Source: Gaiellaceae bacterium (GTDB lineage: Bacteria > Actinomycetota > Thermoleophilia > Gaiellales > Gaiellaceae). Taken from it: DNA of 64,000 nucleotides. The DNA is taken from NCBI GenBank assembly GCA_035706005.1, contig DASSVO010000038.1, positions 1,192-65,191 of the forward strand. The letters are read 5' to 3'. A program made the translations under genes and the position numbers. The notes under the pieces are model-generated. The model was given only the letters and a program-made list of their open reading frames with translations, had not been told where the DNA came from and made no database searches. Below are positions 5,604 through 61,313 of this stretch, piece after piece. Position 1 is the stretch's first letter, and each line of letters begins with the position of its first letter.

Positions 5604-5610
5604 CGGTCTG

Positions 5611-5994: not shown

Positions 5995-6081
5995 GTGAAG
6001 GCACGGATTACCTTCCTGGCCGTCATCCTCGGCGCGGTTGCGCTCGCGCTGATCGTGGCCGACGGCACCGTCTGGCCCTAG
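5995..6081 (+). CDS. 28-aa signal-peptide-like small ORF (candidate pro-peptide)
   Basis: GTG 5995 lies 7 nt after AAAGGA. It translates (M)KARITFLAVILGAVALALIVADGTVWP and ends at TAG 6079-6081. An in-frame stop lies upstream at 5968. Too short for the ORF track. Confidence 0.35.
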   Translation: MKARITFLAVILGAVALALIVADGTVWP

Positions 6082-6099
6082 GCGTCCAGACAGATCGCA

Positions 6100-6129
6100 G
6101 GCGGCGGCGAGCAATTCGGCGCCGCCGCC
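6100..6129 (+). terminator. 10-bp GC hairpin between the small ORF and the regulator
   Basis: GGCGGCGGCG (6100-6109) / CGCCGCCGCC (6120-6129), followed by GCTCTCCTT. Confidence 0.35.
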
Positions 6130-6174
6130 GCTCTCCTTGAGGACCGACTGTGCTGACTGTAGTCTCCAAGCGAG

Positions 6175-16733: not shown

Positions 16734-16742
16734 TCTCGGAGT

Positions 16743-17675
16743 CTAGTCCGCAGCTACCGGGCGCCAGAGGCGCGCGACGAGGCCCACCGTCCAGCCGACC
16801 AGGGTCGCCGCCGTTGCGACGTGCAGGAGGACGAGCCACCACGGCACGTCTCCGTAGGTTCGGTACTGCACCTCGCCGATCACCAGCTGCGCGGCGAGGA
16901 TCGCAATCAGCCCGACGCAGCCGCGGAGCAGCCAGGGATACGCCTGACGCCGGGTCCACGCCCAGCCCGCGAGGACGAGGAAGACAATCCCGAACACGGC
17001 GACGGCACGCACGTGCCAGTAGACCGCGGGGTAGAAGTGGCCGAGCCGCGGCACGACCTTCGTGCCCGAGCTGCCCGGGAAGCGGCCCGCGGCGGTCGCC
17101 GCCGTTCCGCTCACCGCGAGCACGACCACGGACGTGACGAGGACGAGCCCGCCGAGCCGCGCGATCGCGGGCAGCGCGCTCCCGCCGCCGCGGGCGAGGC
17201 GCGACGCTTCGAGCAGCGTGACCACCGCGAGCGAGACGAGCGTGAACGAGAGCAGGAGATGCGTGATCACGAGGTACGGGTTCAGGTCGTAGTAGACGGT
17301 GATCGCGCCGAGCGGCGCCTGCGCGAGCGTCCCCACAAAGACGGCGGTCGCCAGCCACCGCCCGCGGCGCCCCAGTCCGCGCGTGCGCCACGCAGCGACG
17401 CCGAGAGCGAGAGTCGTGAACACCGTGATCGCGGAGACGACACGGTTTCCGAACTCGATGTACGAGTGGTAGGTCTGAGGCAGAGCATGCTGTGTCGTAC
17501 AGGTCGGCCATTCGGGACAGCCGAGCCCGGACCCCGTGAGGCGGACGGTCGCTCCCGACCCGACGATGAGGATGAGCACGCCGACCGCCGCGAGCGCGAC
17601 GCGACGGAAGACGACCGGGGAGACCGTCAGGGCAAGCCGGCGCGGCAATGCAGCCGATACGGACCCCGTGTCCAC
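16743..17675 (-). CDS. ctaA: Heme A synthase (COX15/CtaA)
   Basis: Multi-TM protein with VRLTGSGLGCPEWPTC and HSYIEFGNR motifs. Confidence 0.85.
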   Translation of the reverse strand: MDTGSVSAALPRRLALTVSPVVFRRVALAAVGVLILIVGSGATVRLTGSGLGCPEWPTCTTQHALPQTYHSYIEFGNRVVSAITVFTTLALGVAAWRTRGLGRRGRWLATAVFVGTLAQAPLGAITVYYDLNPYLVITHLLLSFTLVSLAVVTLLEASRLARGGGSALPAIARLGGLVLVTSVVVLAVSGTAATAAGRFPGSSGTKVVPRLGHFYPAVYWHVRAVAVFGIVFLVLAGWAWTRRQAYPWLLRGCVGLIAILAAQLVIGEVQYRTYGDVPWWLVLLHVATAATLVGWTVGLVARLWRPVAAD

Positions 17676-17705
17676 GACCTGAGTGTAGAGCGCTTTCTCC
17701 GCTCG

Positions 17706-18719
17706 CTACGGCTCGAGCACGACGCCGGCGCCTTCCTCCACCACACCCACCCGGGCGAGGAAGAGGCCCGCGCGCCCGAACTCCGCCTCGAGCGAAAGAG
17801 CCTTCTCGGCCGGCAGCGTCACGAGCAACCCGCCCGCGGTCTGGGCGTCGTAGGCGAGTGCGAGCAACTCGTCCGGCACGCCGTCGCTCGCCACGTGGGC
17901 GCCTGCGAAGTCGCGGTTCCGGGGATCGCCGCCGGTGCGGACGCCGTCACGCGCAGCCTCCACCGCTCCTTCGAGGGCCGGCAGCGCGGAGGCACGGAGC
18001 CGGATACGAACGCCGCTCCGTTCCGCCGTCTCGTGCGCGTGGCCGAGCAGCCCGAAGCCGGTGACGTCGGTCACCGCGTGCGGCGAGAAGGACCGCAGGA
18101 TCTCGGCCGCGCGATCGTTGAGCGTCGTCATCCAGCGCGCCGCCTCCGCAAGATCCCCCTTCGTCGCCAGCACGAGCCCGGTGCCGAGCGGCTTGGTCAG
18201 GAAGACGGCGTCTCCGGGCCGGGCGCCGCTCTTGACCCACACGCCGTCCGGATGCACCGTGCCGACCACCGCGAGGCCGTACTTCGGTTCGACGTCGCGA
18301 ATCGTGTGGCCGCCGGCGAGGATCGCACCTGCGGCCCGCACGGCCTCGTCCGCCCCCCTGAAGACCGCCGAGACGAGGTCGGTCGCGAGCTCCTCCGGAA
18401 AGGCCGCGATCGAGAGCGCGAGCAGCGGCGTCCCGCCCATTGCGAAGACGTCGTTGAGCGCGTTCGTCGCGGCGATCCGGCCGAACAGCGCGGGATCGTC
18501 GACGAGAGGCGGGAAGAAGTCCACGGTGAAGACGAGCGCGCGCTCGGCGTCGAGCCGGTAGACGGCGGCGTCGTCGGCGGGATCGAGGCCGACGAGGAGG
18601 TCCTCCGCCTCCGCCGGGACGAAGCCTTTCAGCAGCTCCTCGAGCCGCGCGGCGGAGTACTTCGCCGCACATCCTCCGCCGACGGTGAGGCTCGTCAGTC
18701 CGGCCGCTTCGGTCTCCAC
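17706..18719 (-). CDS. selD: Selenide, water dikinase (Cys-type)
   Basis: GTG 18719 is in frame. N-terminal LTSLTVGGGCAAKYS has Cys at the Sec/Cys position. Also DPALFGRIAATNALNDVFAMGG and TDVTGFGLLGHA. A longer start would overlap the divergent SDR gene. Confidence 0.9.
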   Translation of the reverse strand: METEAAGLTSLTVGGGCAAKYSAARLEELLKGFVPAEAEDLLVGLDPADDAAVYRLDAERALVFTVDFFPPLVDDPALFGRIAATNALNDVFAMGGTPLLALSIAAFPEELATDLVSAVFRGADEAVRAAGAILAGGHTIRDVEPKYGLAVVGTVHPDGVWVKSGARPGDAVFLTKPLGTGLVLATKGDLAEAARWMTTLNDRAAEILRSFSPHAVTDVTGFGLLGHAHETAERSGVRIRLRASALPALEGAVEAARDGVRTGGDPRNRDFAGAHVASDGVPDELLALAYDAQTAGGLLVTLPAEKALSLEAEFGRAGLFLARVGVVEEGAGVVLEP

Positions 18720-49193: not shown

Positions 49194-49556
49194 CTACTTG
49201 CCGCGGACGCCGTGCACCGGCCGGCCCGCCGCCTCCCACGCGTAGTACGAGGCGCTCGGCCCGAAGTCGGCCTCGTAGGAGATGATCCGCGGGTTGCGGC
49301 CCACCTCCTTCGCGCGTTGCGCGTGACGGAGGAGGTTCGGGTCGTCCTGCTCCTCCCAGACGAGCACCAGATGCGCGGCCGTCATGAACACGGCCACGAA
49401 CGCGCAGCCGGGGGCCGGGCACGGGAACGGATCGGTCCGGACGCAGAACCAGCCGACGTGCTCCTGGCCGTCCTCCGTCCAGAGCTCCTCGGCCTCTTCG
49501 GGGACGGCATGCTCGACGGTTCGGGCGATGCCCGGCTGGATCTCCTCCCGCCTCAC
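49194..49556 (-). CDS. Hypothetical protein
   Basis: GTG 49556 is in frame. 120 aa with coding-like GC3 bias and a CPAPGC motif. I recognise no domain. Confidence 0.4.
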   Translation of the reverse strand: MRREEIQPGIARTVEHAVPEEAEELWTEDGQEHVGWFCVRTDPFPCPAPGCAFVAVFMTAAHLVLVWEEQDDPNLLRHAQRAKEVGRNPRIISYEADFGPSASYYAWEAAGRPVHGVRGK

Positions 49557-49590: not shown

Positions 49591-51408
49591 CTACCCGTGC
49601 AGAAGAAGGGCCCAGACACCTCCCGTGACGGCCGTGCCCACCGCAACCCAGGTCACGTAATCCCCCACCACCCCGCTGTGCAGCGCATGGAGGACGCGAA
49701 TCGGCGGCGCGATGGTCCGTTCGGCCGCGACCGCGACGATGCGGGGGAGTCGCCGTCGATAGAGACCGACGACCCCGAGCCCGAGCGCGAGGATCGTTGC
49801 GCTCACTCCGTAGAGGATCGACTCGAGCGACGTGTGGCGGATGGTGACCGGCAGGCTCGTAGGCGGGGACATCGCCTTCGCGTGGAGGACGCGCGCGGCG
49901 TAGCCGCTGGTGTCGCGGAAGCGCTCGGCGGCGTACTCGGCCCGCTGGCCGAGACCGGGGACGACGCTCATGGCGATCCCGAGGACGACTGCGGCCACGG
50001 CGACGGCGACGAGCAGAGGACGCAGGACGTGCCGCTCGAGCGGATCCTCCTCGATCGCCTTCCCGAGCAGCTCGTCCTCCTCGTCGCCCCAGCCCAGGAA
50101 GATGCGGGCGCCCGCGCGGAAGAGGGCTGCTCCGGCGAGCGCGGAGCCGAGCCACAGCAGAGCGGGTACCCACGGCCGGCCGAGCTCGGTGGCGCTCTCG
50201 TCGATCAGCCCGTGACCGAGATAGATGCCCACGTACGGCGTCCCCACGAGGCCGATCGTCCCCGCGAACCACGCGAGAGCGGGTACCCAGCAGCCGCGCG
50301 CCCGCCCGCGCAGGTGCAGCTCGTCGATCAGGCCGTGGTCGGAGTGCAGGATCCCCCCGACGAAGAACAGGCCCGCGGTGAGGAGCGCGTGCGCAAGGAA
50401 CATCAACTCGGCGCCGGCGAGCCCCGATGAGCCGAGCAGGCCGATCCCGGCCAGCATGATCCCGATGTGGCAGACGACGGAATAGGCGAGCATCCGTTTC
50501 AGATGCCGCTGGAGGAACGCCATCGTCCCCGCTAGCACGGCGGTGACGATCCCGAGCCAGAGGAGCACGTCCCCCACCGCGTGGCCGTGCCCGAAGGGCA
50601 CCGCAAAGATGGTCCAGTAGAGGCGGGCGACGCCGATGAGGCCGATGTCCGTCATCACGCCGCCGAGCACCGCACAGACGGGCGCCGGCGCGACCGCGTA
50701 GGCATCGGCCGCCCAGAGGTGGAACGGGACGACCGCTCCCTTCACGAGGAACCCGCAGAGCAGGAGGGTCATGGCGACGATCACGAGCCCGCCGGCCGGC
50801 CCGTGCGACAGGGTCGTCCCGATCTGGGCGAGGTTCAGCGCGCCCGTGCGGGCATAGAGCAGGGCGATCCCGACGGCGAAGAGGTAGCCGCCGAGGCTGT
50901 TCGTGATGGCGAAGTTGACGGCGCCCTGGACGGGCCCCAGCCGCTCCACCTGAAAGCCGGTGAGCGCATACGCCGCAACGCCCATCAACTCCAGCCAGAC
51001 GAAGAGGTTGAAGAGGTCGCCCGACATCGCGAAGCCGCACATCGCTCCGAGCGCGACGAGCATCAGAGCGTCGTAGAGCCGAGCGGCCTCGGGCAGAAAC
51101 GTGAGCGAGTAGAGAAGCGCGAGAGTGACGACGAGGCCGATGACCGCGCACATCCCGGCGGCGAGCGGTCCCACCGCGAAGTCGATCCCGAGCGCGACTC
51201 CGTGGCGCGGCTGCCAGCCGCCGAACCAGTGGACCGCCTCGTGGCTGTACACCTCCCAGAGCAGGACGAAGGAAAGCGCGGCGGTGGCCGCGGACGAGGC
51301 GATGACGATCGCGTCCTGGACGGGCCGAGGCGTGATGTGGTCCAGACCGGCCGTCACGGCGGCGGCGACCAGCGGGATCGCGACGAGCAAGGGCGGGATC
51401 CAGCTCAT
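49591..51408 (-). CDS. Mrp/Mbh antiporter-like subunit (MrpD/MbhH/NuoL-N family)
   Basis: 605-aa polytopic protein: GDLFNLFVWLELMGVAAYALTGF, which is proton-conducting-membrane-transporter-like. Confidence 0.85.
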   Translation of the reverse strand: MSWIPPLLVAIPLVAAAVTAGLDHITPRPVQDAIVIASSAATAALSFVLLWEVYSHEAVHWFGGWQPRHGVALGIDFAVGPLAAGMCAVIGLVVTLALLYSLTFLPEAARLYDALMLVALGAMCGFAMSGDLFNLFVWLELMGVAAYALTGFQVERLGPVQGAVNFAITNSLGGYLFAVGIALLYARTGALNLAQIGTTLSHGPAGGLVIVAMTLLLCGFLVKGAVVPFHLWAADAYAVAPAPVCAVLGGVMTDIGLIGVARLYWTIFAVPFGHGHAVGDVLLWLGIVTAVLAGTMAFLQRHLKRMLAYSVVCHIGIMLAGIGLLGSSGLAGAELMFLAHALLTAGLFFVGGILHSDHGLIDELHLRGRARGCWVPALAWFAGTIGLVGTPYVGIYLGHGLIDESATELGRPWVPALLWLGSALAGAALFRAGARIFLGWGDEEDELLGKAIEEDPLERHVLRPLLVAVAVAAVVLGIAMSVVPGLGQRAEYAAERFRDTSGYAARVLHAKAMSPPTSLPVTIRHTSLESILYGVSATILALGLGVVGLYRRRLPRIVAVAAERTIAPPIRVLHALHSGVVGDYVTWVAVGTAVTGGVWALLLHG

Positions 51409-51749
51409 CCCTTGACGTCCGCGAGGCCGTCCGGGTCGACGGTCCCGGACAGCCGGTGCGCGTCCAGAGCCAGCGCGAGGATGAGCGCGACCACGACCAC
51501 GCTGACGACGATGTCCGTCAGTGTGAGGGCCTGTACGACCGGGTCGACGGCAGGCGTGCCGAGCTTGATGCCCTTGAAGATTGGCGCTCGCCCGTGCTTC
51601 ACGTATCCGACCGTGAGCAGGAGAACGTAGCTCGACGACTGCGTCACCGTCAGGCAGACCGCCAGGTGGATGAGGTTCCGGCTCGTCGCAACGCCGGCGA
51701 GACCGACGAGGCAGAGCCAGGCAGCGACCGCATACGGGAGATAGCTCAA
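51405..51749 (-). CDS. MrpC/MnhC (NuoK-like) subunit
   Basis: 114 aa with three TM segments: SRNLIHLAVCLTVTQSS...LTDIVV. Confidence 0.8.
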   Translation of the reverse strand: MSYLPYAVAAWLCLVGLAGVATSRNLIHLAVCLTVTQSSSYVLLLTVGYVKHGRAPIFKGIKLGTPAVDPVVQALTLTDIVVSVVVVALILALALDAHRLSGTVDPDGLADVKG

Positions 51750-52495
51750 GACGCCGCGTCCTCCGGCTCGAGCGGGATGACGTAGGTCTCGAGAAACTCC
51801 GCGAAGAGCAGCAGCATCGCGAAGGCGACCGCGAGCCCCGCTGCCGCGTTCAGGATGCCGATGCTGCCGCCCGAGAGCAGCGTGCCGGTCGTGCCCTTGC
51901 CGAAGAGGTTGGCGAGGAACGGCAGCCCGGACGCGAGCGCGGCAAGGCCGGTTACGACGTAGCCGCCTGCCCCGATCCCCTCGAACGGATCGAGCGCGTG
52001 CTCGTTGCGAAATGGGCGGTAGTCGCGATGGCTACCGACGAGATAGAGCACCAGGATCGCGCCGGCCAGGACGACGCCTCCCGGGAAGCCACCGCCCGGG
52101 GTGATGTAGCCGAACGCCACGAGCCAGAGGCCGACGAGGAGACCGCCGCCGACCATGCCGACACCGACGAGCCGGACGGCGTCGCTTCGGAGCCGCCGCG
52201 TCTTTCGCTCCACCCGGCGGGCCCCCGACTCGTCCCGCAGCAGGAGCGTGACGCCGATGACCGCGGCGTAGAGGATGAACTCCTCCCCCATCGTGTCGAC
52301 CCCGCGCACGTCGAAGGTCGTCGCCATTACGACGTTCGTCGTATGACGCAGCGGGACGACGATCCGGTTGAGCACGTAGCCATATGGGCCGCGGTAGTCG
52401 CCGAACGCCGGCAGTCCTGCGATCGCCCAGGCAAAGAGCGCGCCGAGCCCGAGCAGGGCCGGTCCGAGGACCGCCATCCGCACGCGCCTAGTCAT
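51746..52495 (-). CDS. MrpB/MnhB-domain subunit
   Basis: ATG 52495 is in frame. Contains VMATTFDVRGVDTMGEE and GGGFPGG. Confidence 0.75.
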   Translation of the reverse strand: MTRRVRMAVLGPALLGLGALFAWAIAGLPAFGDYRGPYGYVLNRIVVPLRHTTNVVMATTFDVRGVDTMGEEFILYAAVIGVTLLLRDESGARRVERKTRRLRSDAVRLVGVGMVGGGLLVGLWLVAFGYITPGGGFPGGVVLAGAILVLYLVGSHRDYRPFRNEHALDPFEGIGAGGYVVTGLAALASGLPFLANLFGKGTTGTLLSGGSIGILNAAAGLAVAFAMLLLFAEFLETYVIPLEPEDAAS

Positions 52496-52769
52496 CCGAC
52501 GTCTTCTTCGATCGACGGCGCTCGCCACGCACGCGTGCGACGGCGGCGAGGATCACGAGCGGGTAGGCGATGCCCGAGACGACGAGCATCGAAAGCGCAG
52601 GGTCGGGCGCCGCGAGCACGACGAAGAGCAGCACGAGCGAGACGCCGTAGACGCCGTTGACGAGCGCCTGACGGAGCGGGTCGCGCGTGAGGACGACGAG
52701 CGGAGCGCCGAGAGCGACGAGCGCGAACGCCACAACCTGCAGGGGCACGAGAGTTCCGGCGACGATCAT
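52488..52769 (-). CDS. MbhD/DUF4040 (MrpA C-terminal-like) subunit
   Basis: 93 aa with three TM segments: LTRDPLRQALVNGVYGVSLVLLFV. Confidence 0.7.
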   Translation of the reverse strand: MIVAGTLVPLQVVAFALVALGAPLVVLTRDPLRQALVNGVYGVSLVLLFVVLAAPDPALSMLVVSGIAYPLVILAAVARVRGERRRSKKTSDD

Positions 52770-53065
52770 GCGCTCGAGTCGGGGTCGTCCGCCCGATGGG
52801 CTGCGCGAGCCGTCGTGATCACGAGGGCCGGATTGAGGAAGAAGAGCAACGCGACCGCTGCGATCGCCTGGATCCCTCCCGAGGTCAGGTGCTCGCGGAT
52901 GAGAACGGCCGCGAGCACGAGGAAGGCGGGGACCGTCGTGCAGGCGGCGGCGTAGTGCAAGCGGTCGAGCGTCGTCCGCATGACGAGAATCCCCGCCACG
53001 CAGAAGAGCTCGGCAAGCACCCCGAGCGCGAGCAGAACGTCGACGGCGAGGTCTGCCGACTGCAT
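52766..53065 (-). CDS. MrpG/MnhG subunit
   Basis: 99 aa placed by residue count: MQSADLAVDVLLALGVLAELFCVAGILVMRTTLDRLHY. Confidence 0.7.
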   Translation of the reverse strand: MQSADLAVDVLLALGVLAELFCVAGILVMRTTLDRLHYAAACTTVPAFLVLAAVLIREHLTSGGIQAIAAVALLFFLNPALVITTARAAHRADDPDSSA

Positions 53066-53316
53066 CAGGTCCAGCGGCCGAGGAAGCGGGCGAACACGAG
53101 GCAGCCGATCCAGGACGTGACCGCGGCGATGATCGGCACCGTGAAGAACGTCGACTGACCGAGGCCCACGGAGAGACAGAGCAGGATCAACGTGGCGATT
53201 GCCCCGACTGCCTCCAGCGCGACGAGCCCGTCGATGGGGGGGCGCACCGAAGCGACGACCAGAAGCGGCGCAAGCGCGGCGATCAGGACCGTTGCTGCGA
53301 CGAGGAACGCATTCAC
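53065..53316 (-). CDS. MrpF/MnhF subunit
   Basis: 83 aa with a GTG start and three TM segments: RPPIDGLVALEAVGAIATLILL. Confidence 0.7.
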   Translation of the reverse strand: MNAFLVAATVLIAALAPLLVVASVRPPIDGLVALEAVGAIATLILLCLSVGLGQSTFFTVPIIAAVTSWIGCLVFARFLGRWT

Positions 53317-53780
53317 GCGGGACGCTCCGAGCTGCGGTTCGGGACGAGATCGTGGAGGAGAACGGTGCCTGTCTCGGGATCGACGTCGATCGGATACGCA
53401 TTCGGGCTGTAGCAGGCGAGGAGAACCCTCAGCGCGCGGGGCCCGACGCCGCAGGCGGCGGCCACTCCGCCCTCCAGCTCCCGCGACACGAGGCGGCCCC
53501 GGACGACGCGACGGCGGGCGGCGCTCGTGACCAGCGCCCACGCGACGATGCCGAAGTCCGCCACGACCATGCCGAAGGCCTGAGGCAGATCGGCGAGCCC
53601 GCGAAGCGGCACGCGCGCATGGAAACCGGTTCGCGTGCGCGCGTACTCGGCGAGGCTCGCGGCGATCGTCGACGCGACCGCAGCAGCCACCAGCTCCTGC
53701 ACATTCCACTCGCCGACGAGCAGGAACCAGAGCCAGAAGAGGGTGAGCCACCACGCGACCCAGGCGACGACGTGCTTCAC
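53313..53780 (-). CDS. MrpE/MnhE subunit
   Basis: 155 aa with a GTG start: VAWWLTLFWLWFLLVGEWNVQELV. Confidence 0.65.
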   Translation of the reverse strand: MKHVVAWVAWWLTLFWLWFLLVGEWNVQELVAAAVASTIAASLAEYARTRTGFHARVPLRGLADLPQAFGMVVADFGIVAWALVTSAARRRVVRGRLVSRELEGGVAAACGVGPRALRVLLACYSPNAYPIDVDPETGTVLLHDLVPNRSSERPA

Positions 53781-53887
53781 GCCGCGCGTATCCCCGCCTG
53801 GCGACAGCGCCAATCGTTCCACGCAGAACGAGGGCCCGCCGTCCGGGCGGGCCCTCGTCTCTCGGGCGAGGCGATGTGGCTGCTGTG

Positions 53888-54655
53888 TTACTGGCCCTGC
53901 TTGATCCCAGGCTCCGCCCACGGAAGCTCGACTGCCTCGAGCGGTTGCCTGCCCGGGACGTTCGCCGCCTTCTTGTACTCGAACAGCGGCAGGATGGTGC
54001 GCTTCGTGACCGAGGTGAGGCATAGCGCCGTCACCACGTAGGCCGCGAGGCCTGCCGAGATTACGAACAGGACTCCCCCGGCGCCGAGCCAGCCACTGCC
54101 GATTCCGCCCATGAACCAGCCGGCGCACGAGAGGGCCGAGCCGGCCGCGAGCGTCCACAGCACTGCCGAGACGGCGAGATTGTGGCCCATCGCGGCCACT
54201 GCCGGGATGAACGTGATGTAGGCGAGACCGAAGAACCACAGCCCGAGAGCCGTGTTCGACACGCCGGGTGCGGGCGCCGGCAGCTTGCCGACGAGGATGA
54301 AGATGTTCAGGAGCCCGAAGGCGATCCAGAACGCTCCCCACGCACCGTGTGCGAGCGTCGCGACGACGTCGCGTGCCTTGTAGGACCACATTCCGGCGGC
54401 GAACTGCGCGATGCCGCCGAAGGTCAAGGCGAACAAGGCGATGACGGGCATGTCGGACCATGCCCCCCACCATCCGGCCTGAATGACTGCCACCATGAAC
54501 GTCGCCACCGAGAAACCCGCGAGGCCGAGCGCGGACGGTGCCGCAATCGGCTGGAGGAACACGCGCGGGCGGGCGAAGCCGTCGCGCCACGCCTCCTCCT
54601 CGCGGAGCGCGACGCCGGCAGAAGCGTGTTGTCTGCGCTCGTCGATCGTGCTCAT
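53888..54655 (-). CDS. Divergent GPR1/FUN34/YaaH-family channel (second paralogue)
   Basis: ATG 54655 was placed by codon count. Contains APSALGLAGFSVATF and FGGIAQFAAGMW with six TM segments. It has a C-terminal extension absent from the 35499 paralogue. Confidence 0.7.
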   Translation of the reverse strand: MSTIDERRQHASAGVALREEEAWRDGFARPRVFLQPIAAPSALGLAGFSVATFMVAVIQAGWWGAWSDMPVIALFALTFGGIAQFAAGMWSYKARDVVATLAHGAWGAFWIAFGLLNIFILVGKLPAPAPGVSNTALGLWFFGLAYITFIPAVAAMGHNLAVSAVLWTLAAGSALSCAGWFMGGIGSGWLGAGGVLFVISAGLAAYVVTALCLTSVTKRTILPLFEYKKAANVPGRQPLEAVELPWAEPGIKQGQ

Positions 54656-54758
54656 AAAGCAACGACCCCTTTCTGCGTCGTGTCCTTTAGTTCGTATTGC
54701 GTTGCTCCTTTCGCCTGCCCGCTTGCGGCGGGGGAAAACCTCAAGAATCCCCGCGACT

Positions 54759-54772
54759 GCGATGTACATCGC
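54759..54772. promoter_or_regulatory. Perfect 14-bp palindrome GCGATGTACATCGC
   Basis: Lies in the 159-bp divergent region between the channel/mrp operon and the fdh operon. Confidence 0.35.
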
Positions 54773-54814
54773 ACCCCGTTTACACGCTCGCGTGGATCGG
54801 AAGAAACAACAGCA

Positions 54815-57800
54815 ATGGCGCTCGCGAAGCTCCTCGACTCGTGGCCTGCGCTGCGGCAGCTGCGGGAGGGCGATCCCCTCGGCCTGGGCAAGTCGGTGCA
54901 ATCGCCGCGCTCCCAGCGCCTCGTGCCGCGCCTCGACGAGGCCGAGCACGTCGTCCACTCGATCTGTCCCTACTGCGCGGTCGGCTGCGGCCAGCTCGTC
55001 TACGTCAAGGACGGCGACGTCACCCACATCGAGGGCGATGCGGCGAGCCCGATCTCACGTGGCCGGCTCTGCCCGAAGGGACAGGCGTCGAAGAGCTTCG
55101 TCCAGAGCCCGCTGCGCGAGTACAAGGTCAAGTACCGGCGGCCCTACGGCACCGCGTGGGAGGAGCTGTCGCTCGACGACGCGATGGACATGATCGCCGA
55201 GCGGATCGTCAGGACGCGCGCCGACACGTGGCGCAAGCGGACGGAGGGCGGCGCACCCGCGAACCGCACGATGGCCATCGGCAATCTCGGCGGCGCGACG
55301 CTCGACAACGAGGAGAACTACCTCATCAAGAAGCTGATGACGGCGCTCGGCATCGTGCAGGTCGAGAACCAGGCCCGCATATGACACAGCTCCACGGTGC
55401 CCAGTCTGGGCACCTCGTTCGGACGAGGCGGCGCGACGACCTTCCAGCAGGACCTGCAGAACGCGGACTGCATCGTGATCATGGGCTCGAACATGGCCGA
55501 GAACCACCCGGTCGGATTCCAGTGGGTGATGGAGGCCAGGGAGCGCGGCGCGAAGGTGATCCACGTCGATCCGCGCTTCACGCGCACGAGCGCGATGGCG
55601 ACGAAGCACGTCGGCATCCGCGCCGGTAGCGACATCGCCTTCCTCGGCGGCATCGCCAACTACCTCCTGCAGAACGACCTCTACTTCCGGGAGTACGTCG
55701 AGAAGTACACGAACGCGCCCGTCATCATCGACGAGCGCTTCGTCGGCCCCGAGGATGCGGACGGACTGTTCTCGGGCTGGGATCCGGAGTCCGGGCGCTA
55801 CGACATCGAGTCGTGGCGCTACGAAGGGATGGAGGTTCACGGTGCAGCCGGACAGCGCGGCGAAGGCTTCGAGCCGAGCGGCGAGCAGTCCGGCCACGGG
55901 GCCGCCGGCGGCGGGCTGCATCACGGCGAGCCGCCGGCCGAGGATCCCGAGCTCAACCATCCGCGCTGCGTCTTCCAGATCCTGAAGCGCCACTACCAGC
56001 GCTACACGCCCGAGTTCGTGGCCGAGACCTGCGGCTGCTCGGTGGAGGACTTCGTCGAGGTCTGCGAGACCCTGGCGGCGAACTCCGGCAGGGAGCGGAC
56101 GAGCGCCTTCTGCTACGCGGTCGGCTGGACGCAGCACACCGTCGGCGTGCAGATGATCCGCTCGGCCGCCGTCGTGCAGCAGCTGCTCGGCAACATCGGC
56201 CGTCCCGGCGGCGGGATCATGGCGCTCCGCGGCCACGCGTCGATCCAGGGCTCGACCGACATCCCGACGCTGTTCAACATCCTGCCCGGCTATCTGCCGA
56301 TGCCGCACACGCTGAGCTACCACACCCTCGACAACTTCGTCGACTCGAACACGTCGCCGACGGGCTGGTGGGGGAAGTTCGAGTCGTACTGGGTCAGCCT
56401 GATGAAGGCCTACTTCGGCGAGCACGCGACCGCCGAGAACGACTGGCTGTTTGACCACATGCCGCGCGTCGACAGCGACAACTCCGCCTACTTCACCGTC
56501 CAGCAGATGCTCGAGGGAAACGTGAAGGGCTACATCATCGCCGGCGAGAACCCGGCCGTCGGCCACGCGAACGGCAGGGCCCACCGGCTCGGGCTCGCGA
56601 AGCTCGACTGGCTCGTCGTGCGCGACGTCGTCGAGATCGAGTCGGCGTCCTTCTGGTACGACAGCCCCGAGGTCGAGTCGGGCGAGCTGAAGCCCGAGGA
56701 GATCCCGACCGAGATCTTCTTCCTCCCGGCCGCCGCGCACACGGAGAAGGACGGCTCCTTCACGAACACGCAACGCCTGCTGCAGTGGCACTGGCAGGCG
56801 GTCGAGCCGAAGGAGGACTGCCGTTCGGAGCTCTGGTTCTACTTCCACCTCGGCCGCCGGATCAAGCAGAGGCTCGAGGACTCCGAGGAGGAGCGCGACA
56901 CGCTCATCAAGGCCCTGCGGTGGGAGTACCCGACCCACTCGGCGATCCAGGAGCCCGACGCCGAGGCCGTCCTCCAGGAGGTCAACGGCTGGGAGATCGA
57001 GAGCGGCAAGTTCCTCAGCGGGTATCCGGAGTTGAAGGACGACGGCTCCACCCTGTGCGGCTGCTGGATCTACTGCGGCTGCTTCAAGGACGGGATCAAC
57101 CAGACGGCGCGCAAGAAGCCGCACTGGGAGCAGGAGAGCTACGTCGCGCCCGAGTGGGCCTGGGCCTGGCCGGCCAACAGGCGGCTGATCTACAACCGCG
57201 CCTCGGCGGATCCCGACGGGAACCCGTGGTCGGAGCGGAAGCGCTACGTGTGGTGGGACGAGAGCGAGGGCAAGTGGACCGGCCTCGACGTCCCGGACTT
57301 CAAGGAGGACAAGGAGCCGCACTACGTGCCGCCCGACGACGCGAAGGCCGAGGACGCGATCGCCGGCGCTCACCCGTTCGTCATGCAGGCGGACGGCCGC
57401 TCGTGGCTGTACGTCCCGCAGGGTCTCGAGGACGGACCGCTCCCGACGCACTACGAGCCGCACGAGTCGCCGTTCGACAACCCGCTGTACTCGCAGCGGG
57501 CGAACCCGCGCCGCCAGCAGAACAAGGACCTCGCCGAGGATCCGTACAACCCGGTCGCCGACGAGCCGGGCGCCGAGGTCTATCCGTACGTCGTGACCAC
57601 CTACCGCTTGACCGAGCACCACACCGCCGGCGGAATGACGCGCTCCGTCCCCTACCTCGCGGAGCTCCAGCCGGCGATGTTCTGCGAGGTGCATCCCGAC
57701 CTCGCGCGGGAGGTCGGGCTCGAGCACGGCGGCTGGGCGACGATCTACACGTCCCGGTCGGCGATCGAGGCGCGCGTGCTCGTCACCGAGCGCATGCGGC

Positions 57801-58087
57801 CCCTCCGCAGGAAGGACGGCCGCAGCGTCCACCAGGTGGGGCTGCCGTACCACTGGGGCAAGCGCGGCCTCGTCACCGGCGACTCCGCAAACGACCTCGC
57901 GCACATGGCGCTCGACCCGAACGTCCACATCCAGGAGGTCAAGGCGTTCACCTGCGGGATCCGGCCGGGCCGCCGGCCGCGCGGCCCGGAGCTGCCCCGC
58001 TTCGTCGCCGAGCTGCGCGACCAGGCGCATTCGCGCCGCGAGCAGGAGCCTCGCGTCGAGCCCGAGGAAGTGAGGAAAACGACGTGA
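54815..58087 (+). CDS. Formate dehydrogenase alpha subunit (FdnG/FdoG-type), selenocysteine at 55382-55384
   Basis: Track ORFs 54182..55384 and 55397..58087 share one frame. The junction reads VENQARI-U-HSSTVPSLGTSFGRGG, compared with QARVUHGPTV in E. coli FdnG. The N-terminal 4Fe-4S motif is CPYCAVGCG. The ATG at 54815 is in frame, and there is no RRxF Tat motif. Confidence 0.9.
55396..55414 (+). promoter_or_regulatory. SECIS-like hairpin of the fdh alpha gene
   Basis: GGTGCCC-AGTCT-GGGCACC forms a perfect 7-bp stem. The loop lies 19-23 nt after the UGA. The GUCU-containing loop recalls the E. coli fdhF SECIS. Confidence 0.55.
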
Positions 58088-58989
58088 ACGGTCCTCTCGG
58101 GAGCCTGATGGAGCCCACCGGCATCCCCGCCGGTTGGGAGGCATACGGGGACGAGAAGAAGGAGCGCGTCGGCTTCTTCACCGACACCTCCGTCTGCATC
58201 GGCTGCAAGGCGTGCGAGGTCGCCTGCAAGGAGTGGAACCTCATCCCGGAGGACGGCCGCGCCTGGACCGGCGAGTCGTACGACCACACCTCGCAGCTCG
58301 ACGCGAACTCGTGGCGCCACGTCGCGTTCATCGAGCAGGAGAAGCCGCTCTTCAACAATGGCGACGGCAGCACGGGACTTCGCTGGCTCATGGAATCGGA
58401 CGTCTGCAAGCACTGCACTCACGCCGCGTGTCTCGACGTCTGTCCGACCGGCTCCCTCCTCCGCACCGAGTTCGGCACCGTCGTCGTCCAGCAGGACATC
58501 TGCAACGGCTGCGGCTACTGCGTCCCTGCCTGTCCCTTCGGCGTCCTCGACAAGCGGCACCTGCCGGCCACGACCGACCCGCCGCCGGCGTTCCTCGGCC
58601 GCAAGGAGGACGGCCGCGTCTGGAAGTGCACGCTCTGCTACGACCGTCTGAAGGGTGGCCACGAGCCGGCCTGCGCCAAGGCGTGCCCGACGAAGTCGAT
58701 CCAGTTCGGCCCGCTCGAGGAGCTCCGCGAGCGCGCCGACGCGCGGCTGGCGAAGCTCGAGGCCGAGAACTGGAACGGCGCGCAGCTGTATGGCCGCGAC
58801 CCGGACGACGGCGTGGGAGGCTTCGGCGCCTTCTTCCTCCTGCTCGACGATCCCGAGGTCTACGGGCTGCCGCCGGATCCGGTCGTGACGACGCGCGACC
58901 TGCCGGAGATGTGGACGAACATGCTCGCCGCGGCGGGCGCCCTGCTCGCGGGCGTGACGGCCCTGACGCTCCTCGGAGGCCGGAGATGA
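58084..58989 (+). CDS. Formate dehydrogenase beta subunit (FdnH-like 4x[4Fe-4S], C-terminal TM anchor)
   Basis: GTG 58084 forms a GTGA overlap, and an alternative ATG lies at 58108. Contains CIGCKACEVACKEWN, CKHCTHAACLDVCP and CNGCGYCVPACP, with a hydrophobic tail. Confidence 0.9.
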   Translation: MNGPLGSLMEPTGIPAGWEAYGDEKKERVGFFTDTSVCIGCKACEVACKEWNLIPEDGRAWTGESYDHTSQLDANSWRHVAFIEQEKPLFNNGDGSTGLRWLMESDVCKHCTHAACLDVCPTGSLLRTEFGTVVVQQDICNGCGYCVPACPFGVLDKRHLPATTDPPPAFLGRKEDGRVWKCTLCYDRLKGGHEPACAKACPTKSIQFGPLEELRERADARLAKLEAENWNGAQLYGRDPDDGVGGFGAFFLLLDDPEVYGLPPDPVVTTRDLPEMWTNMLAAAGALLAGVTALTLLGGRR

Positions 58990-59972
58990 CGGAGGCGTTC
59001 CGGCTCGACGGAAAGCCTTCGATCACCGCGGCCGGCAACGACATGCGCTCGTACTACGGGCGTCCGGTGATCAAGGAGCCGGTCTGGACGTGGGAGATCC
59101 CCACCTACTTCTTCACCGGCGGCCTCGCCGGCGCCTCCGCGGTGCTGAGCTCGGCGGCGAGGCTGACGGGGAACGAGAAGCTGGCGCGGACGGCGCTCTA
59201 CGTCGGCGCCGCCGCAGATCTCGTCTCCCCTGCACTCCTCGTCTCGGACCTCGGACGGCCCGAGCGCTTCCACCACATGCTCCGCGTCGTCAAGGTCACG
59301 TCGCCGATGAACCTCGGCTCCTGGGTCCTGCTCGTAAGCGGAGGAGCCTCGACGACCGCGGCGCTGCTCCAGCTCCTCGGCCGCTGGAAGCCGGTGCGGA
59401 TCGCGGCGTCGATCGTCGCCGCGCTGGCGGGTCCGCCACTCGCGACGTACACCGGCGTCCTCATTGCGGATACGGCCGTGCCGGTGTGGCACGACGGGCG
59501 CCACGAGCTGCCGTGGATCTTCGGCGCGAGCGCGGCTGCCAGCTCCGGGGCCGCCGCGTGCGTGTTCGTGCCCCCCGAGGACGCCGGCCCCGCCCGGCGG
59601 GTCGCGATCGCCGGTGTTCTCGCCGAAGGCGCGCTCATGCAGTTGATGGAGCTCCGGCTGGGAACGGTCGGCGAGGTCTACCACCAGGGGCCGGCCGGGA
59701 AGCTCTCCTGGGCGGCGAAGGGGCTCGCGGCCACGGGCGCCGCGGTGCTCGCGAAACGCGGCCGGAAGAGCCGCGGTGCCGCAGTCCTCGGCGGAGCGCT
59801 CGTCTGCGCCGGCGAGCTGTGCCTCCGCTGGTCCGTGTTCAAGGCGGGCTTCCAGTCGGCGCGCGATCCGAAGTACGTCGTCGAGTCGCAGCGGCGACGC
59901 GTCGAGCAGCAGGGGACGAAGGCGACGACGAAGCCCGGCGAGAGCCCGGGCTCCGCGAGCCGCGGCGCATGA
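58986..59972 (+). CDS. NrfD/PsrC-family integral membrane subunit
   Basis: ATG 58986 forms an ATGA overlap. Contains YYGRPVIKEPVWTWEIPTYFFTGGLAG and multiple TM segments. Confidence 0.85.
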   Translation: MTEAFRLDGKPSITAAGNDMRSYYGRPVIKEPVWTWEIPTYFFTGGLAGASAVLSSAARLTGNEKLARTALYVGAAADLVSPALLVSDLGRPERFHHMLRVVKVTSPMNLGSWVLLVSGGASTTAALLQLLGRWKPVRIAASIVAALAGPPLATYTGVLIADTAVPVWHDGRHELPWIFGASAAASSGAAACVFVPPEDAGPARRVAIAGVLAEGALMQLMELRLGTVGEVYHQGPAGKLSWAAKGLAATGAAVLAKRGRKSRGAAVLGGALVCAGELCLRWSVFKAGFQSARDPKYVVESQRRRVEQQGTKATTKPGESPGSASRGA

Positions 59973-59978
59973 GGGCGC

Positions 59979-60335
59979 TCAGCCGCCGCTGACGGTGTCG
60001 AGGTCGGGCACCTGCCCGCTCTCCGGGTGCGGCTGCGTGTACGCCTCGCGGCCGGGCGGGTCGCCGCTCTCCTCGCGGGGCGAGTGCGGCACCTCGTGTT
60101 CGTCGGCTGGCTGGACACGGAGGAGCTGCTCCGCCACCTCGTCGATGTTGTCGTAGCGCCGCTCGGGCAGCCGCTGGAGCAGCGCCAGCTGCTCTCCGCT
60201 CGCCCCCTCCCGCAGGGCGTACTTCAGGAGGGCGGAGCGCTCGTTGGGAAGGGCCACGCCCTCCAGTAGCGTCTGAAGCTCGGCGACGGTCGCGAAGTCC
60301 ACGAGGATTCGGTGCCTCGTTTGGCGCCGCAGCAA
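59979..60335 (-). CDS. DUF2795 domain protein
   Basis: LLEGVALPNERSALLKYALREGASGEQLALLQRLPERRYDNIDEV. GTG 60302 is an alternative start. Confidence 0.65.
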   Translation of the reverse strand: MLRRQTRHRILVDFATVAELQTLLEGVALPNERSALLKYALREGASGEQLALLQRLPERRYDNIDEVAEQLLRVQPADEHEVPHSPREESGDPPGREAYTQPHPESGQVPDLDTVSGG

Positions 60336-60352
60336 ACAGGTACTCGGGCTGG

Positions 60353-61303
60353 ATGGAGCTCGGCTTCGCCCTCTCCTCGGAAGACCACCCGCCGAACGAG
60401 CTCGTCCGCCAGGCGCAGAGCGCAGAGCGGGCCGGCTTCACGTTCGCGCTCATCTCCGACCACTTCCATCCCTGGGTCGGCGAGCAGGGCCACAGCCCGT
60501 TCGTCTGGTCGACGCTTGGCGGCATCGCGCAGGCGACCGAGAAGATCCGCGTCGGTACCGGTGTGACCTGCCCGCTCATCCGCATCCATCCGGCAATCGT
60601 GGCGCAGGCAGCCGCGACGGTCGCCTGCATGATGCCCGGCCGCTTCTTTCTCGGAGTCGGCACGGGCGAGAACCTCAACGAGCACGTGACGGGAGCGCGC
60701 TGGCCGCTGCCATGGGAGCGGCTCGAGATGCTCGAGGAGGCGGTCGAGGTCATCCGCCCGCTCTGGACCGGCGAGGAGATCACGCATCGCGGCGAGCACT
60801 ACACCGTGGAGGAGGCCCGCCTCTACACGGTTCCCGACGAGCGGCTCGAGATCTACGTCGCCGCTGCCAAGCCGCAGGCCGCGGAGGTCGCCGGGCGGAT
60901 CGGTGACGGGTTCATCTCGACCGCGCCCGACGAGGAGCTCGCCGAGACGTTCGAGTCGGCCGGCGGGCGCGGTAAGCCGAAGGTCGGGATGATCCACGTC
61001 GCGTACGACGCGGACGAGGAGGCGGGACACGAGCGCGCACACCGCATGTGGCCGAACCTCGCGCTGGCCGGCCCGGGCGGCCAGGAGCTGCCCGCGCCCC
61101 GCGACTTCGAGGAGTCCGCCGCGAACGTCACGGTCGAGGACGTCGCCTCCTCGACGCCGGCCGGGCCCGACCCGGAGCCGTACCTCGAGCTGATCCGGAA
61201 GTACGAGGAGGCAGGCTTCACGCACGTCTACGTCCATCAGATCGGGGAGAACCAGGAGGAGTTCGCCGAGTTCGCCGCCCGCGAGCTGATCGGCTCTCTC
61301 TAA
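60353..61303 (+). CDS. LLM-class F420-dependent oxidoreductase (G6PDH-family type)
   Basis: 316 aa: [15 protein letters not shown]...[11 protein letters not shown]. Luciferase-like TIM barrel. Confidence 0.8.
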
Positions 61304-61313
61304 GATCGAAGAC

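What the first reader, a model, noticed from the sequence alone, without database searches (positions are those of the whole stretch)
49591..59972. Mbh-order Mrp module (E-F-G-MbhD-B-C-D, no full MrpA, no hydrogenase) divergent from the formate dehydrogenase operon
The seven minus-strand genes from 53780 to 49591 encode MrpE, F, G, a 93-aa DUF4040/MbhD piece, MrpB, MrpC and a single antiporter-like subunit. This is the MbhA-H gene order of membrane-bound hydrogenase / formate-hydrogenlyase membrane arms. It is not the mrpABCDEFG order, and there is no NuoL-like MrpA N-terminal domain.

No hydrogenase or Nuo peripheral subunits are present. The module is instead headed by a SatP-like channel gene and faces, across a 159-bp divergent promoter, a Sec-FDH with FdnH and NrfD subunits. 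In Thermococcales, fdh-mfh-mnh clusters couple formate oxidation to ion translocation.

This juxtaposition could be a simpler formate-linked ion-translocating unit. Functional coupling is inference from gene adjacency only.
Basis: inference. Interest (0 to 1): 0.6.

Follow-up and report, generated by a model that had tools for sequence, protein, structure and literature searches.

The report
One-pump Mrp antiporter beside formate dehydrogenase
A soil Gaiellaceae bacterium carries a small seven-gene sodium/proton exchanger of an already named type next to a formate-oxidising enzyme, but comparison across several hundred genomes shows two self-contained machines that sit side by side mainly in this lineage.

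Summary
Minus-strand genes 49591-53780 encode MrpE, F, G, MbhD, an MbhE+MrpB fusion, MrpC and one antiporter-like subunit. A SatP-family gene lies upstream. Across 159 bp lies a divergent selenocysteine FdnG-FdnH-NrfD operon.

Each Mrp subunit matches the MBH/MBS membrane arm best. The 605-aa pump subunit also carries a C-terminal tail: transmembrane helix, lateral helix, then transmembrane helices. Its end motif weakly resembles MbhI. Two 91-94% complete genomes of the genus show no MrpA, NuoD-like or NuoH-like gene outside nuo.

This is the mrpA-less "group 3" Mrp. Its tested relative is the stand-alone Pyrococcus furiosus mrpEFGBB'CD. The scan has met this one-pump type before on other DNA.

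The formate-coupling idea is not supported as a rule. Outside the genus I examined 92 loci of this subtype, from Streptomyces, Nocardia, Acidobacteriaceae, Methylobacterium, Planctomycetota and others. Three have the FDH operon alongside and one more is ambiguous. The same FDH trio is common without this Mrp.

Within the genus the roughly 11-kb Mrp-SatP-FDH block is present or absent as a unit. That fits a contiguous accessory block and does not show coupling.

Verdict: an ordinary new member of known kinds. A loose physiological link is possible, and a physical formate-driven pump is unlikely (about 6%).

The parts
49591..51408 (-). Single antiporter-like subunit, 605 aa. It has an MbhH/MrpD-like 14-TM core plus a C-terminal tail (aa ~443-605: TM, lateral helix, TM helices) that ends in an LxxLHSGxxGDY motif.
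   Evidence: PF00361, 3.3e-45. Best PDB sequence hits: MbhH 6cfw_H 3.7e-42, MbsH 3.9e-37, MrpD 2.4e-30, MrpA 1.2e-20. AF2 model: pLDDT 89, pTM 0.92, tail helices at 463-482, 486-509, 528-549, 556-576 and 581-604. Foldseek top hits are MrpD and MbhH, TM-score 0.88-0.93. A profile of the tail has MbhI 6cfw_I as its top PDB hit, E=0.25. Key residues: E140 and K223 kept; TM8 Lys is Asp254; TM11 Lys is Thr344; TM12 Lys is His399.
51405..51749 (-). MrpC / MbhG (NuoK-like), 114 aa. Its end overlaps the MrpD-like start by 4 nt.
   Evidence: PF00420, 4.3e-15. NCBIfam MrpC families hit, all below cut-off.
51746..52528 (-). MbsE-type fusion of MbhE (the last TMs of MrpA) and MbhF/MrpB. Length is 249-260 aa; the start is either 52495 or 52528.
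   Evidence: 6u8y_E 1.7e-17 over residues 24-236; 6cfw_F 4.2e-8 (131-239); 6cfw_E 2.5e-4 (51-99). PF04039 3.1e-16 and PF20501 9.6e-4.
52488..52769 (-). MbhD / DUF4040 piece (equivalent to MrpA TM17-19), 93 aa.
   Evidence: PF13244, 4.8e-9. 6cfw_D 0.0012; MrpA residues 654-716, 0.016.
52766..53065 (-). MrpG / MbhC, 99 aa.
   Evidence: PF03334, 3.1e-9. TIGR01300, 1.5e-8, below cut-off.
53065..53316 (-). MrpF / MbhB, 83 aa.
   Evidence: PF04066, 1.1e-7.
53313..53780 (-). MrpE / MbhA, 155 aa.
   Evidence: No Pfam or NCBIfam hit. A profile of 18 positional orthologues hits MbsA 6e-13, MbhA 1e-7, MrpE 7qru_E 0.008.
53888..54655 (-). SatP/GPR1-FUN34-YaaH family channel, 255 aa. Likely a formate or acetate channel. 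It lies 107 bp upstream of MrpE on the same strand.
   Evidence: PF01184, 1.5e-18. NF038013 AceTr_1, 3e-10, below cut-off. Absent in G002 and G022, which keep Mrp and FDH. A 47% homologue sits directly upstream of fdnG in G051, which lacks this Mrp.
54656..54814 (.). 159-bp divergent intergenic region.
   Evidence: Alignment of nine genus loci. The 14-bp palindrome at 54759-54772 is not conserved. A CCGTTTACGCG-like motif about 40 nt upstream of fdnG is kept in 7 of 9. The sigma-70 and terminator scans found nothing.
54815..58087 (+). FdnG, 1090 aa, molybdopterin formate dehydrogenase alpha subunit. Selenocysteine U190 is encoded by TGA at 55382-55384. No twin-arginine motif is visible.
   Evidence: Read-through translation. 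NF041513 formate_DH_Act, 1483 bits against a cut-off of 1400. PF04879, PF00384 and PF01568.
58084..58989 (+). FdnH-like four-cluster Fe-S subunit, 301 aa.
   Evidence: Fer4_11, 3.3e-17. TIGR01582 FDH-beta, 2.8e-52, 178 bits, below the 335-bit cut-off.
58986..59972 (+). NrfD-family, heme-less membrane quinone-interacting subunit, 328 aa. Its ATG overlaps the FdnH stop (ATGA).
   Evidence: PF14589, 5.9e-18, and PF03916, 2.2e-14. Start read from the sequence.

Best explanation
There are two autonomous membrane systems that happen to share an accessory block in Gaiellaceae.

(1) The seven genes build a stand-alone, mrpA-less 'group 3' Mrp cation/proton antiporter with one pump subunit.
- MrpE/F/G plus the MrpB-like half of the fusion form the Na+(K+) module.
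- MbhD, the MbhE half and MrpC form the connecting proton path.
- One MbhH/MrpD-like subunit provides the proton channel. Its C-terminal lateral-helix tail, the equivalent of MbhI and of TM15-HL-TM16 of MrpA/NuoL, clamps or caps the complex.
- By analogy with the P. furiosus stand-alone Mrp, it exchanges H+ for Na+ (or K+) at the expense of existing gradients and serves pH or Na+ homeostasis.

(2) FdnG(Sec)-FdnH-NrfD is the usual actinobacterial formate:menaquinone oxidoreductase. The SatP paralogue probably conducts formate.

No obligatory energetic or physical coupling exists between the two.

Shown here: gene content, homologies, distribution and synteny. Inferred: ion specificity, direction of transport, FDH orientation and quinone use.
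For: Subunit-by-subunit homology to the MBH/MBS arm and to Mrp.

The type is defined and partly tested in P. furiosus (PMC8415708). There, group 3 means no mrpA. The stand-alone mrpEFGBB'CD deletion strain is sensitive to acidification, and Na+ is the coupling ion.

The same seven-gene module, with the tail, stands alone next to unrelated housekeeping genes (LysR regulator, adenylate kinase, aldo-keto reductase, epimerase). I saw this in 17 of 20 phylum loci and in about 70 named genomes, including Streptomyces rimosus, Nocardia, Micromonospora, Acidobacteriaceae, Roseomonas and Methylobacterium.

The tail alone finds 596 clusters at 50% identity.

FDH and the module are distributed independently. 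The FDH trio is complete in 14 of 14 loci without the module. It belongs to a curated actinobacterial family (NF041513), and a homologous alpha-beta-NrfD enzyme is described in Rhodococcus equi (PMC13332983).

There is no NuoH/MbhM-like or NuoD-like gene outside nuo. Subunit lengths are similar (MrpD-like about 573-626 aa) in the two loci where the full gene was read next to an FDH (L024, L048) and in loci without one.
Against: Adjacency is kept across deep divergence inside Gaiellaceae; in L048 the MrpD-like protein is only 43% identical.

Adjacency recurs in another arrangement in G227 (MrpD followed by FdnG on the same strand, roughly 0.15-0.2 kb apart) and in L092. That is more than the roughly 0.2 adjacent cases I would expect by chance among about 70-90 loci (my rough estimate).

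In the genus, Mrp and FDH are all-or-none. Ten genomes have both and twelve have neither. Two have only one, each on a broken contig.

An FDH with no visible Tat motif and a heme-less NrfD anchor has no obvious redox-loop coupling site, so an attached pump would make energetic sense.

The pump subunit has non-canonical TM8 (Asp) and TM12 (His) residues, so ordinary antiport is not guaranteed.

Nothing here is experimental. The window's genome is only 61% complete.
Confidence: 0.68

Rival explanations
1. Loose physiological coupling. The block is a co-regulated 'formate island'. SatP admits formate and the FDH oxidises it. The one-pump Mrp then corrects the resulting cytoplasmic pH or Na+ disturbance, or converts the proton gradient into a Na+ gradient. 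The complexes do not touch.
For: The block is gained or lost as one unit between orfX and acn. In G011 the two flanks are 55 bp apart and in G024 137 bp. The divergent arrangement is kept in 8 of 8 genus contigs and in L048 and L092. G227 has a co-directional arrangement. A SatP homologue accompanies the FDH in G051. The P. furiosus Mrp acts in pH homeostasis (PMC8415708).
Against: A contiguous block is lost as a unit whatever its function. No conserved shared operator was found: the palindrome is unique to the window, and the conserved motif lies on the fdnG side and persists without SatP. Most carriers of either system lack the other nearby.
Confidence: 0.2
2. Physical formate-driven ion pump. 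FdnGH-NrfD docks onto the Mrp module, for example at the MbhI-like tail, which contacts MbhM in MBH. Formate:quinone electron transfer then drives Na+/H+ translocation. This would be a hydrogenase-less analogue of the Thermococcus fdh-mfh-mnh system.
For: Gene adjacency in Gaiellaceae and three other lineages. An energetic rationale: large driving force, no heme redox loop and no visible Tat motif. T. onnurineus fdh2 clusters with a membrane hydrogenase and an antiporter and is essential for growth on formate (PMC8965080 abstract). NrfD-like subunits are proposed to translocate ions (PMC8076601 title and abstract).
Against: No NuoH/MbhM- or NuoB/D-type coupling subunits exist. In every known Mrp-derived respiratory complex these transmit redox energy (established knowledge; PMC8415708). 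The tail and all seven subunits show the same architecture in the many genomes without an adjacent FDH. FDH subunits show no lineage-specific extension. Either system occurs without the other in complete genomes.
Confidence: 0.06
3. The module is not a Na+/H+ antiporter. The changes in the central charged axis could mean a different ion (K+, Ca2+), a different stoichiometry, a uniport-like leak, or a decaying system.
For: The TM8 Lys is Glu or Asp in most of the family. In this clade the TM12 Lys is His, and in this genus the TM11 Lys is Thr. All Mrp subunits fall below NCBIfam cut-offs. No bacterial one-pump Mrp has been assayed (PMC8415708 covers only the archaeal one).
Against: The TM5 Glu and TM7 Lys are invariant. 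All seven genes are intact, translationally coupled and conserved from 35 to 87% identity across phyla. This argues for selection on a working complex. His and Asp can still be protonated.
Confidence: 0.12

Closest known systems
Stand-alone group 3 Mrp of Pyrococcus furiosus (mrpEFGBB'CD; Haja & Adams 2021, PMC8415708)
   Same: Seven genes in E-F-G-(B-type pieces)-C-D order. No mrpA, one MrpD-type pump subunit and no redox module. The proposed role is Na+-coupled pH homeostasis.
   Different: There, MbhD and MbhE are fused (MrpB) and MbhF is separate (MrpB'). Here MbhD is separate and MbhE and MbhF are fused, as in MbsE. Here the pump subunit carries an MbhI/NuoL-like lateral-helix tail and has Asp at the TM8 Lys and His at the TM12 Lys. 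This one is bacterial and mesophilic. I did not compare directly with the P. furiosus Mrp sequences because they are not in the PDB.
Membrane arm of MBH (6CFW) and MBS (6U8Y), subunits MbhA-I / MbsA-H
   Same: These are the best sequence matches for every subunit: MbhH, MbsE, MbhD, MbsA/MbhA. The tail motif resembles MbhI. The order is colinear, A-B-C-D-(E+F)-G-(H+I).
   Different: No MbhJKLMN hydrogenase or NuoBDHI-like module lies in the cluster, and none was found in the genomes searched beyond complex I.
Thermococcus onnurineus fdh2-mfh2-mnh2 formate hydrogenlyase cluster (PMC8965080, PMC5703873)
   Same: A formate dehydrogenase next to a group 3 Mrp-type module.
   Different: In Thermococcus a membrane [NiFe] hydrogenase (Mfh2) links the two and is the energy-converting step. 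There is no hydrogenase here. This FDH is a quinone-linked FdnGH-NrfD enzyme.
Actinobacterial FDH alpha-beta-NrfD (NCBIfam NF041513 'formate_DH_Act'; Rhodococcus equi enzyme described in PMC13332983)
   Same: The alpha subunit scores above the family cut-off. The beta subunit is a four-cluster Fe-S protein of the FdnH type (I did not check for a C-terminal TM helix). An NrfD-family anchor of about 330 aa replaces cytochrome b FdnI. There is no canonical Tat signal.
   Different: This one uses selenocysteine (U190). It is adjacent to Mrp and SatP, which is not the case in 13 of the 14 other FDH loci I examined.
Group 1/2 Mrp antiporters (Anoxybacillus flavithermus 6Z16, Bacillus pseudofirmus 7QRU, Dietzia 7D3U)
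   Same: Homologous MrpB/C/D/E/F/G parts. The fold of the pump subunit matches MrpD (TM-score 0.90-0.93).
   Different: Those have a second pump, the N-domain of MrpA, fused to the MbhD/E-equivalent helices. Their gene order is A-B-C-D-E-F-G.

Membership tests
Group 3 (mrpA-less) Mrp antiporter, CPA3 | No mrpA gene (a NuoL-like N-domain fused to MrpB-type helices) in the cluster or genome | tested here: met
   The cluster has one PF00361 gene. The own genome (61% complete) and genus genomes G002 (91%) and G014 (94%) have only nuoLMN plus this gene. The own genome has a single MbhD/DUF4040.
Group 3 (mrpA-less) Mrp antiporter, CPA3 | At least one MrpD-type antiporter-like subunit | tested here: met
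   PF00361, 3.3e-45. MbhH, MbsH and MrpD are the best PDB matches.
Group 3 (mrpA-less) Mrp antiporter, CPA3 | Both MrpB-type domains present (the MrpA TM17-21 equivalent and MrpB proper) | tested here: met
   MbhD PF13244 and 6cfw_D. The fusion matches MbsE over its full length, MbhE and MbhF.
Group 3 (mrpA-less) Mrp antiporter, CPA3 | MrpC, MrpE, MrpF and MrpG present | tested here: met
   PF00420, PF04066 and PF03334. MrpE is supported only by the profile against the PDB.
Group 3 (mrpA-less) Mrp antiporter, CPA3 | Canonical charged axis of the pump subunit (TM5 Glu, TM7 Lys, TM8 Lys/His, TM12 Lys/Glu) | tested here: inconclusive
   E140 and K223 are kept. TM8 is Asp254 (mostly Glu in the family). 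TM12 is His399 (mostly Lys in the family).
Group 3 (mrpA-less) Mrp antiporter, CPA3 | Cation/proton antiport activity | not testable with these tools
   This needs vesicle assays.
MBH/MBS-type Mrp-containing respiratory complex | NuoH-like (MbhM) and NuoD/NuoB-like (MbhL/J) subunits encoded with the Mrp module | tested here: not met
   None lies in the window around the module. G000, G002 and G014 each have one PF00346 and one PF00146 gene. In G000 and G002 both lie in the nuo cluster; in G014 NuoH lies beside nuoLMN and NuoD is on another contig.
Thermococcales fdh-mfh-mnh formate hydrogenlyase | A membrane [NiFe] hydrogenase between FDH and the Mnh module | tested here: not met
   There is no hydrogenase gene in the block. 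There is no extra NuoD-family large subunit in the genomes.
Formate dehydrogenase, actinobacterial type (NF041513) | The alpha subunit scores above the curated cut-off | tested here: met
   1483 bits against a cut-off of 1400, using only the part after the Sec codon.
FDH-N (E. coli FdnGHI) type | A Tat signal on FdnG and a di-heme cytochrome b FdnI anchor (redox loop) | tested here: not met
   No twin-arginine motif is visible in the N-terminus. The third gene is NrfD-family, not cytochrome b. TIGR01553 scores 785 against a cut-off of 814, and TIGR01582 scores 178 against 335.

The most novel reading that the evidence does not exclude
In Gaiellaceae, and independently in a few other soil lineages, the NrfD-anchored formate dehydrogenase (no Tat motif visible) may dock on the one-pump Mrp module. 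The MbhI-like tail occupies the face that binds MbhM in MBH and could be the docking site. This would give a hydrogenase-less, quinone-linked, formate-driven Na+/H+ pump. It would be a new way of attaching a redox enzyme to an Mrp module without NuoH/NuoBD-type subunits.
Probability: 0.06. Interest if true: 0.75.

Novelty: new member of a known kind. Interest (0 to 1): 0.3.

Why it matters
As it stands, this is an annotation-level result.

It shows that the bacterial one-pump, mrpA-less Mrp is widespread. The tail alone finds 596 clusters at 50% identity, and carriers include cultured Streptomyces, Nocardia, Micromonospora, Methylobacterium and Roseomonas. The family has a fixed architecture colinear with MbhA-I of the archaeal hydrogenase, including an MbhI-like tail. 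It also has an unusual acidic residue where canonical pumps have the TM8 lysine.

That makes it a convenient minimal system for asking how a single antiporter-like subunit can drive or gate Na+/H+ exchange. Haja & Adams raised this open point for the P. furiosus enzyme.

The formate link would matter only if a physical or regulatory coupling were shown. The comparative evidence here argues against it as a rule.

Tried and rejected
(1) A full MrpA or a hydrogenase-type coupling module elsewhere in the genome. None was found in the own genome or in two near-complete genus genomes.

(2) A conserved redox partner next to the module in other lineages. All-against-all clustering of flanking ORFs in 20 loci gave only lineage-local housekeeping neighbours such as a LysR regulator, adenylate kinase, an ABC ATPase, an aldo-keto reductase and an epimerase.

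(3) The 14-bp palindrome in the divergent promoter as a shared operator. It is not conserved in any of eight other genus loci.

(4) Promoter and terminator scans of the SatP/MrpE/FdnG region and of the MrpD-FdnG gap in L024. Nothing was found; the scans are uninformative in 70% GC DNA.

(5) The small ORF downstream of MrpD (orfX) as an eighth subunit. It travels with GCS2, not with Mrp, and is present in genomes without the block.

(6) Residue changes specific to FDH-adjacent modules. TM12 His is specific to the Gaiellaceae clade and is not shared by L024 or L054.

(7) My first two GC3-based gene callers mis-called antisense frames. I replaced them with a GC3>GC1>GC2 rule.

(9) The first homologous-protein search returned only relatives at 83-94% identity and gave the taxon name but no diversity.

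Full report
WHAT IS THERE

The window comes from a 61% complete MAG. Database names of near-identical proteins place it in Gaiellaceae.

With 70% GC the six-frame ORF list is noisy. Pfam scans and a codon-position GC rule pick out a tight minus-strand run:
- MrpD-like, 49591-51408, 605 aa.
- MrpC, 51405-51749.
- A 249-260 aa 'MrpB', 51746-52495 or 52528.
- MbhD, 52488-52769.
- MrpG, 52766-53065.
- MrpF, 53065-53316.
- MrpE, 53313-53780.

After a 107-bp gap comes a SatP-family gene, 53888-54655. Across 159 bp, on the plus strand, lie three genes:
- FdnG (54815-58087), 1090 aa when the single internal TGA is read as Sec, giving U190 in ENQARIUHS.
- FdnH (58084-58989).
- An NrfD-family gene (58986-59972), whose ATG overlaps the FdnH stop.

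WHAT THE MRP MODULE IS

Every subunit is closest to the archaeal MBH/MBS membrane arm, not to bacterial Mrp.
- The pump subunit hits MbhH (3.7e-42), MbsH (3.9e-37), MrpD (2.4e-30) and MrpA (1.2e-20).
- The 'MrpB' matches MbsE over its whole length (1.7e-17). Its halves match MbhE and MbhF, so it is the MbhE+MbhF fusion known from MBS.
- The 93-aa protein matches MbhD and MrpA residues 654-716.
- The MrpE-position protein has no Pfam or NCBIfam hit. A profile of 18 positional orthologues finds MbsA (6e-13), MbhA (1e-7) and MrpE (0.008).

The pump subunit is 100 aa longer than MrpD or MbhH. Its last 160 residues are conserved across the family and end in an LxxLHSGxxGDY motif. The top PDB hit of a profile of this tail, among 177,635 sequences, is MbhI residues 78-113 with the same H-G-DY motif. 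The E-value is only 0.25, so this is a lead and not proof.

An AlphaFold2 model (pLDDT 89, pTM 0.92) shows, after the 14-TM core, a TM helix, an amphipathic helix at about 486-509, and further helices at 528-549, 556-576 and 581-604. By Foldseek the core matches MrpD and MbhH (TM-score 0.88-0.93). NuoL and NdhF align over more than 630 columns, including the tail, but with poor rmsd.

The cluster is therefore colinear with MbhA-B-C-D-(E+F)-G-(H+I).

Key residues:
- The TM5 Glu (E140) and TM7 Lys (K223) are kept.
- The TM8 Lys is Asp254. In 60 of 87 family members it is Glu.
- In the Gaiellaceae clade the TM12 Lys is His399.
- In this genus the TM11 Lys is Thr344.

IS ANYTHING MISSING ELSEWHERE?

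The own genome holds only nuoLMN besides this pump gene, and holds a single MbhD. Two genus genomes that are 91% and 94% complete (G002, G014) also have only nuoLMN plus the orthologue. They have one NuoD-like and one NuoH-like gene each. In G000 and G002 both lie in the nuo cluster; in G014 NuoH lies beside nuoLMN and NuoD is on another contig.

So there is no MrpA to complement the cluster and no MbhM/MbhL-type coupling module.

WHAT IS KNOWN

Haja & Adams (PMC8415708) define group 3 Mrp by the lack of mrpA. They describe the stand-alone P. furiosus mrpEFGBB'CD. It has no 'energy-input module', its deletion strain is more sensitive to acidification, and Na+ is its coupling ion. Ito et al. 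(PMC5703873) use 'group 3' for irregular gene orders.

The present module is a bacterial member of that kind with a different fusion pattern and a tail. Earlier notes of this scan flagged the same one-pump type in other genomes and supplied the lead to this paper. I checked the paper and the TM8 observation myself.

IS IT TIED TO FORMATE DEHYDROGENASE?

Within the genus (24 genomes sampled), 11 have the MrpD orthologue and 11 have the FDH.
- Ten have both and twelve have neither.
- The two single cases (G004, G003) sit on broken contigs.
- On all eight contigs long enough, the two operons are adjacent and divergent.
- The flanks (sigma, HMA, GCS2, orfX on one side; LLM, aconitase on the other) are equally syntenic, so this is shared descent.

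In genus members without the block, orfX and aconitase are 55 bp (G011) or 137 bp (G024) apart. The roughly 11-kb Mrp-SatP-FDH(-LLM) stretch is therefore a present/absent unit. Those genomes have aconitase 90-91% identical to the window's. That is closer than some block carriers (78-82%), which suggests loss inside the clade. I built no species tree.

Beyond the genus the picture changes. In an even sample of 401 Actinomycetota genomes:
- About 26 carry the long-tailed subtype.
- 140 carry an FdnG relative at E<=1e-80.
- Nineteen of the 26 carriers also have the FDH. It is on the same contig only in G227, where FdnG follows MrpD on the same strand (L024).
- One family has the FDH in 30 of 31 genomes and no MrpD-like hit at all.
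- Complete genomes G092 and G427 have the module and no FDH.

A scan of one genome per species found the module in Streptomyces (including S. rimosus), Kitasatospora, Embleya, Nocardia, Micromonospora, Pseudonocardiaceae, Acidimicrobiales, Solirubrobacteraceae, Acidobacteriaceae, Roseomonas, Methylobacterium, Rhodospirillales, Planctomycetota and others.

I examined 92 non-genus loci; 67 have at least 1.5 kb on both sides.
- An FDH operon adjoins the module in L024, L092 and, at a contig edge, L048. L048 is a distant Gaiellaceae with the same orfX-GCS2-sigma flank.
- L054 shows only a 40%-identical N-terminal fragment of a molybdoenzyme.
- On a FastTree of the pump subunit these cases are not one clade, but the backbone is weak.

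Neighbours elsewhere are unrelated housekeeping genes. Conversely, the FdnG-FdnH-NrfD trio is intact in 14 of 14 FDH loci that lack the module. One of these has a SatP homologue directly upstream of fdnG, and one lies 3.6 kb from a canonical Mrp.

FdnG scores above the cut-off of the curated actinobacterial family NF041513. A homologous alpha-beta-NrfD enzyme has been described for Rhodococcus equi, where its orientation is also unsettled (PMC13332983).

REGULATION

A CCGTTTACGCG-like motif about 40 nt upstream of fdnG is conserved, including in the two genomes that lack SatP. Consensus promoter and terminator scans found nothing.

READING

The best-supported explanation is two autonomous systems:
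- A stand-alone group 3 one-pump Mrp antiporter, working like the P. furiosus enzyme. Ion specificity and direction are inferred.
- An ordinary actinobacterial Sec-FDH that feeds the quinone pool through an NrfD anchor, with SatP as a likely formate channel.

Their adjacency is a property of a Gaiellaceae accessory block. A loose physiological link is possible (about 0.2), for example pH or Na+ homeostasis during formate uptake and oxidation. The few recurrences of adjacency hint at this.

A physical formate-driven pump (about 0.06) lacks any known coupling subunit. It would also require that a family-wide architecture serve a partner that most members do not have.

The altered TM8 and TM12 residues leave open whether transport is canonical (about 0.12 that it is not Na+/H+ antiport).

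NOVELTY

This is a new member of known kinds. The useful by-products are the subunit-level mapping onto MbhA-I, the conserved tail, the acidic TM8 residue, and a list of cultured carriers in which the one-pump bacterial Mrp could finally be tested.

Noticed in passing
window 49194-49556 (-): A conserved 120-aa ORF with no Pfam family and a Cys-rich motif (WFCVxTDPFPCPAPGC). It is 70-93% identical across the genus and always sits next to the GCS2 gene. It is also present in genomes that lack the Mrp-FDH block, so it is not an eighth Mrp subunit.
   Followed up: partly
window 54759-54772: The perfect 14-bp palindrome GCGATGTACATCGC in the divergent promoter is not conserved in any of eight related loci. 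A CCGTTTACGCG-like motif about 40 nt upstream of fdnG is conserved in 7 of 9.
   Followed up: yes
L126 (G051:C1) 6663-7304; L014, L016: A SatP-family gene (47% identical) sits directly upstream of fdnG in a family that lacks the one-pump Mrp. Two genus members (G002, G022) have lost SatP but kept Mrp and FDH. SatP looks like an FDH accessory (formate channel) and not the head of the Mrp operon.
   Followed up: partly
L133 (G064:C1) 14360-18461: In an 8.5-Mb actinobacterial genome the same FDH genes (there ordered FdnH-NrfD-FdnG) lie 3.6 kb from a canonical MrpA/C/D-type Mrp cluster. This is a second, different Mrp type near an FDH.
   Followed up: no
window 49591-61313 versus G011:C6:111135-114225 and G024:C74:69-3235: The whole Mrp-SatP-FDH-DUF2795-LLM stretch (about 11.7 kb) is missing in close relatives. 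There orfX and aconitase are 55 and 137 bp apart, giving a clean presence/absence polymorphism.
   Followed up: partly
window 59979-60335 (-): A DUF2795 gene (PF11387, 6.8e-13) lies between NrfD and the luciferase-like monooxygenase. It is present in only some genus members.
   Followed up: no
L092 (CAWKKG010000055.1) 1883-6900: The FDH operon next to the Mrp module is broken into many frame-shifted tblastn pieces. This is probably long-read assembly indel error and not decay.
   Followed up: no
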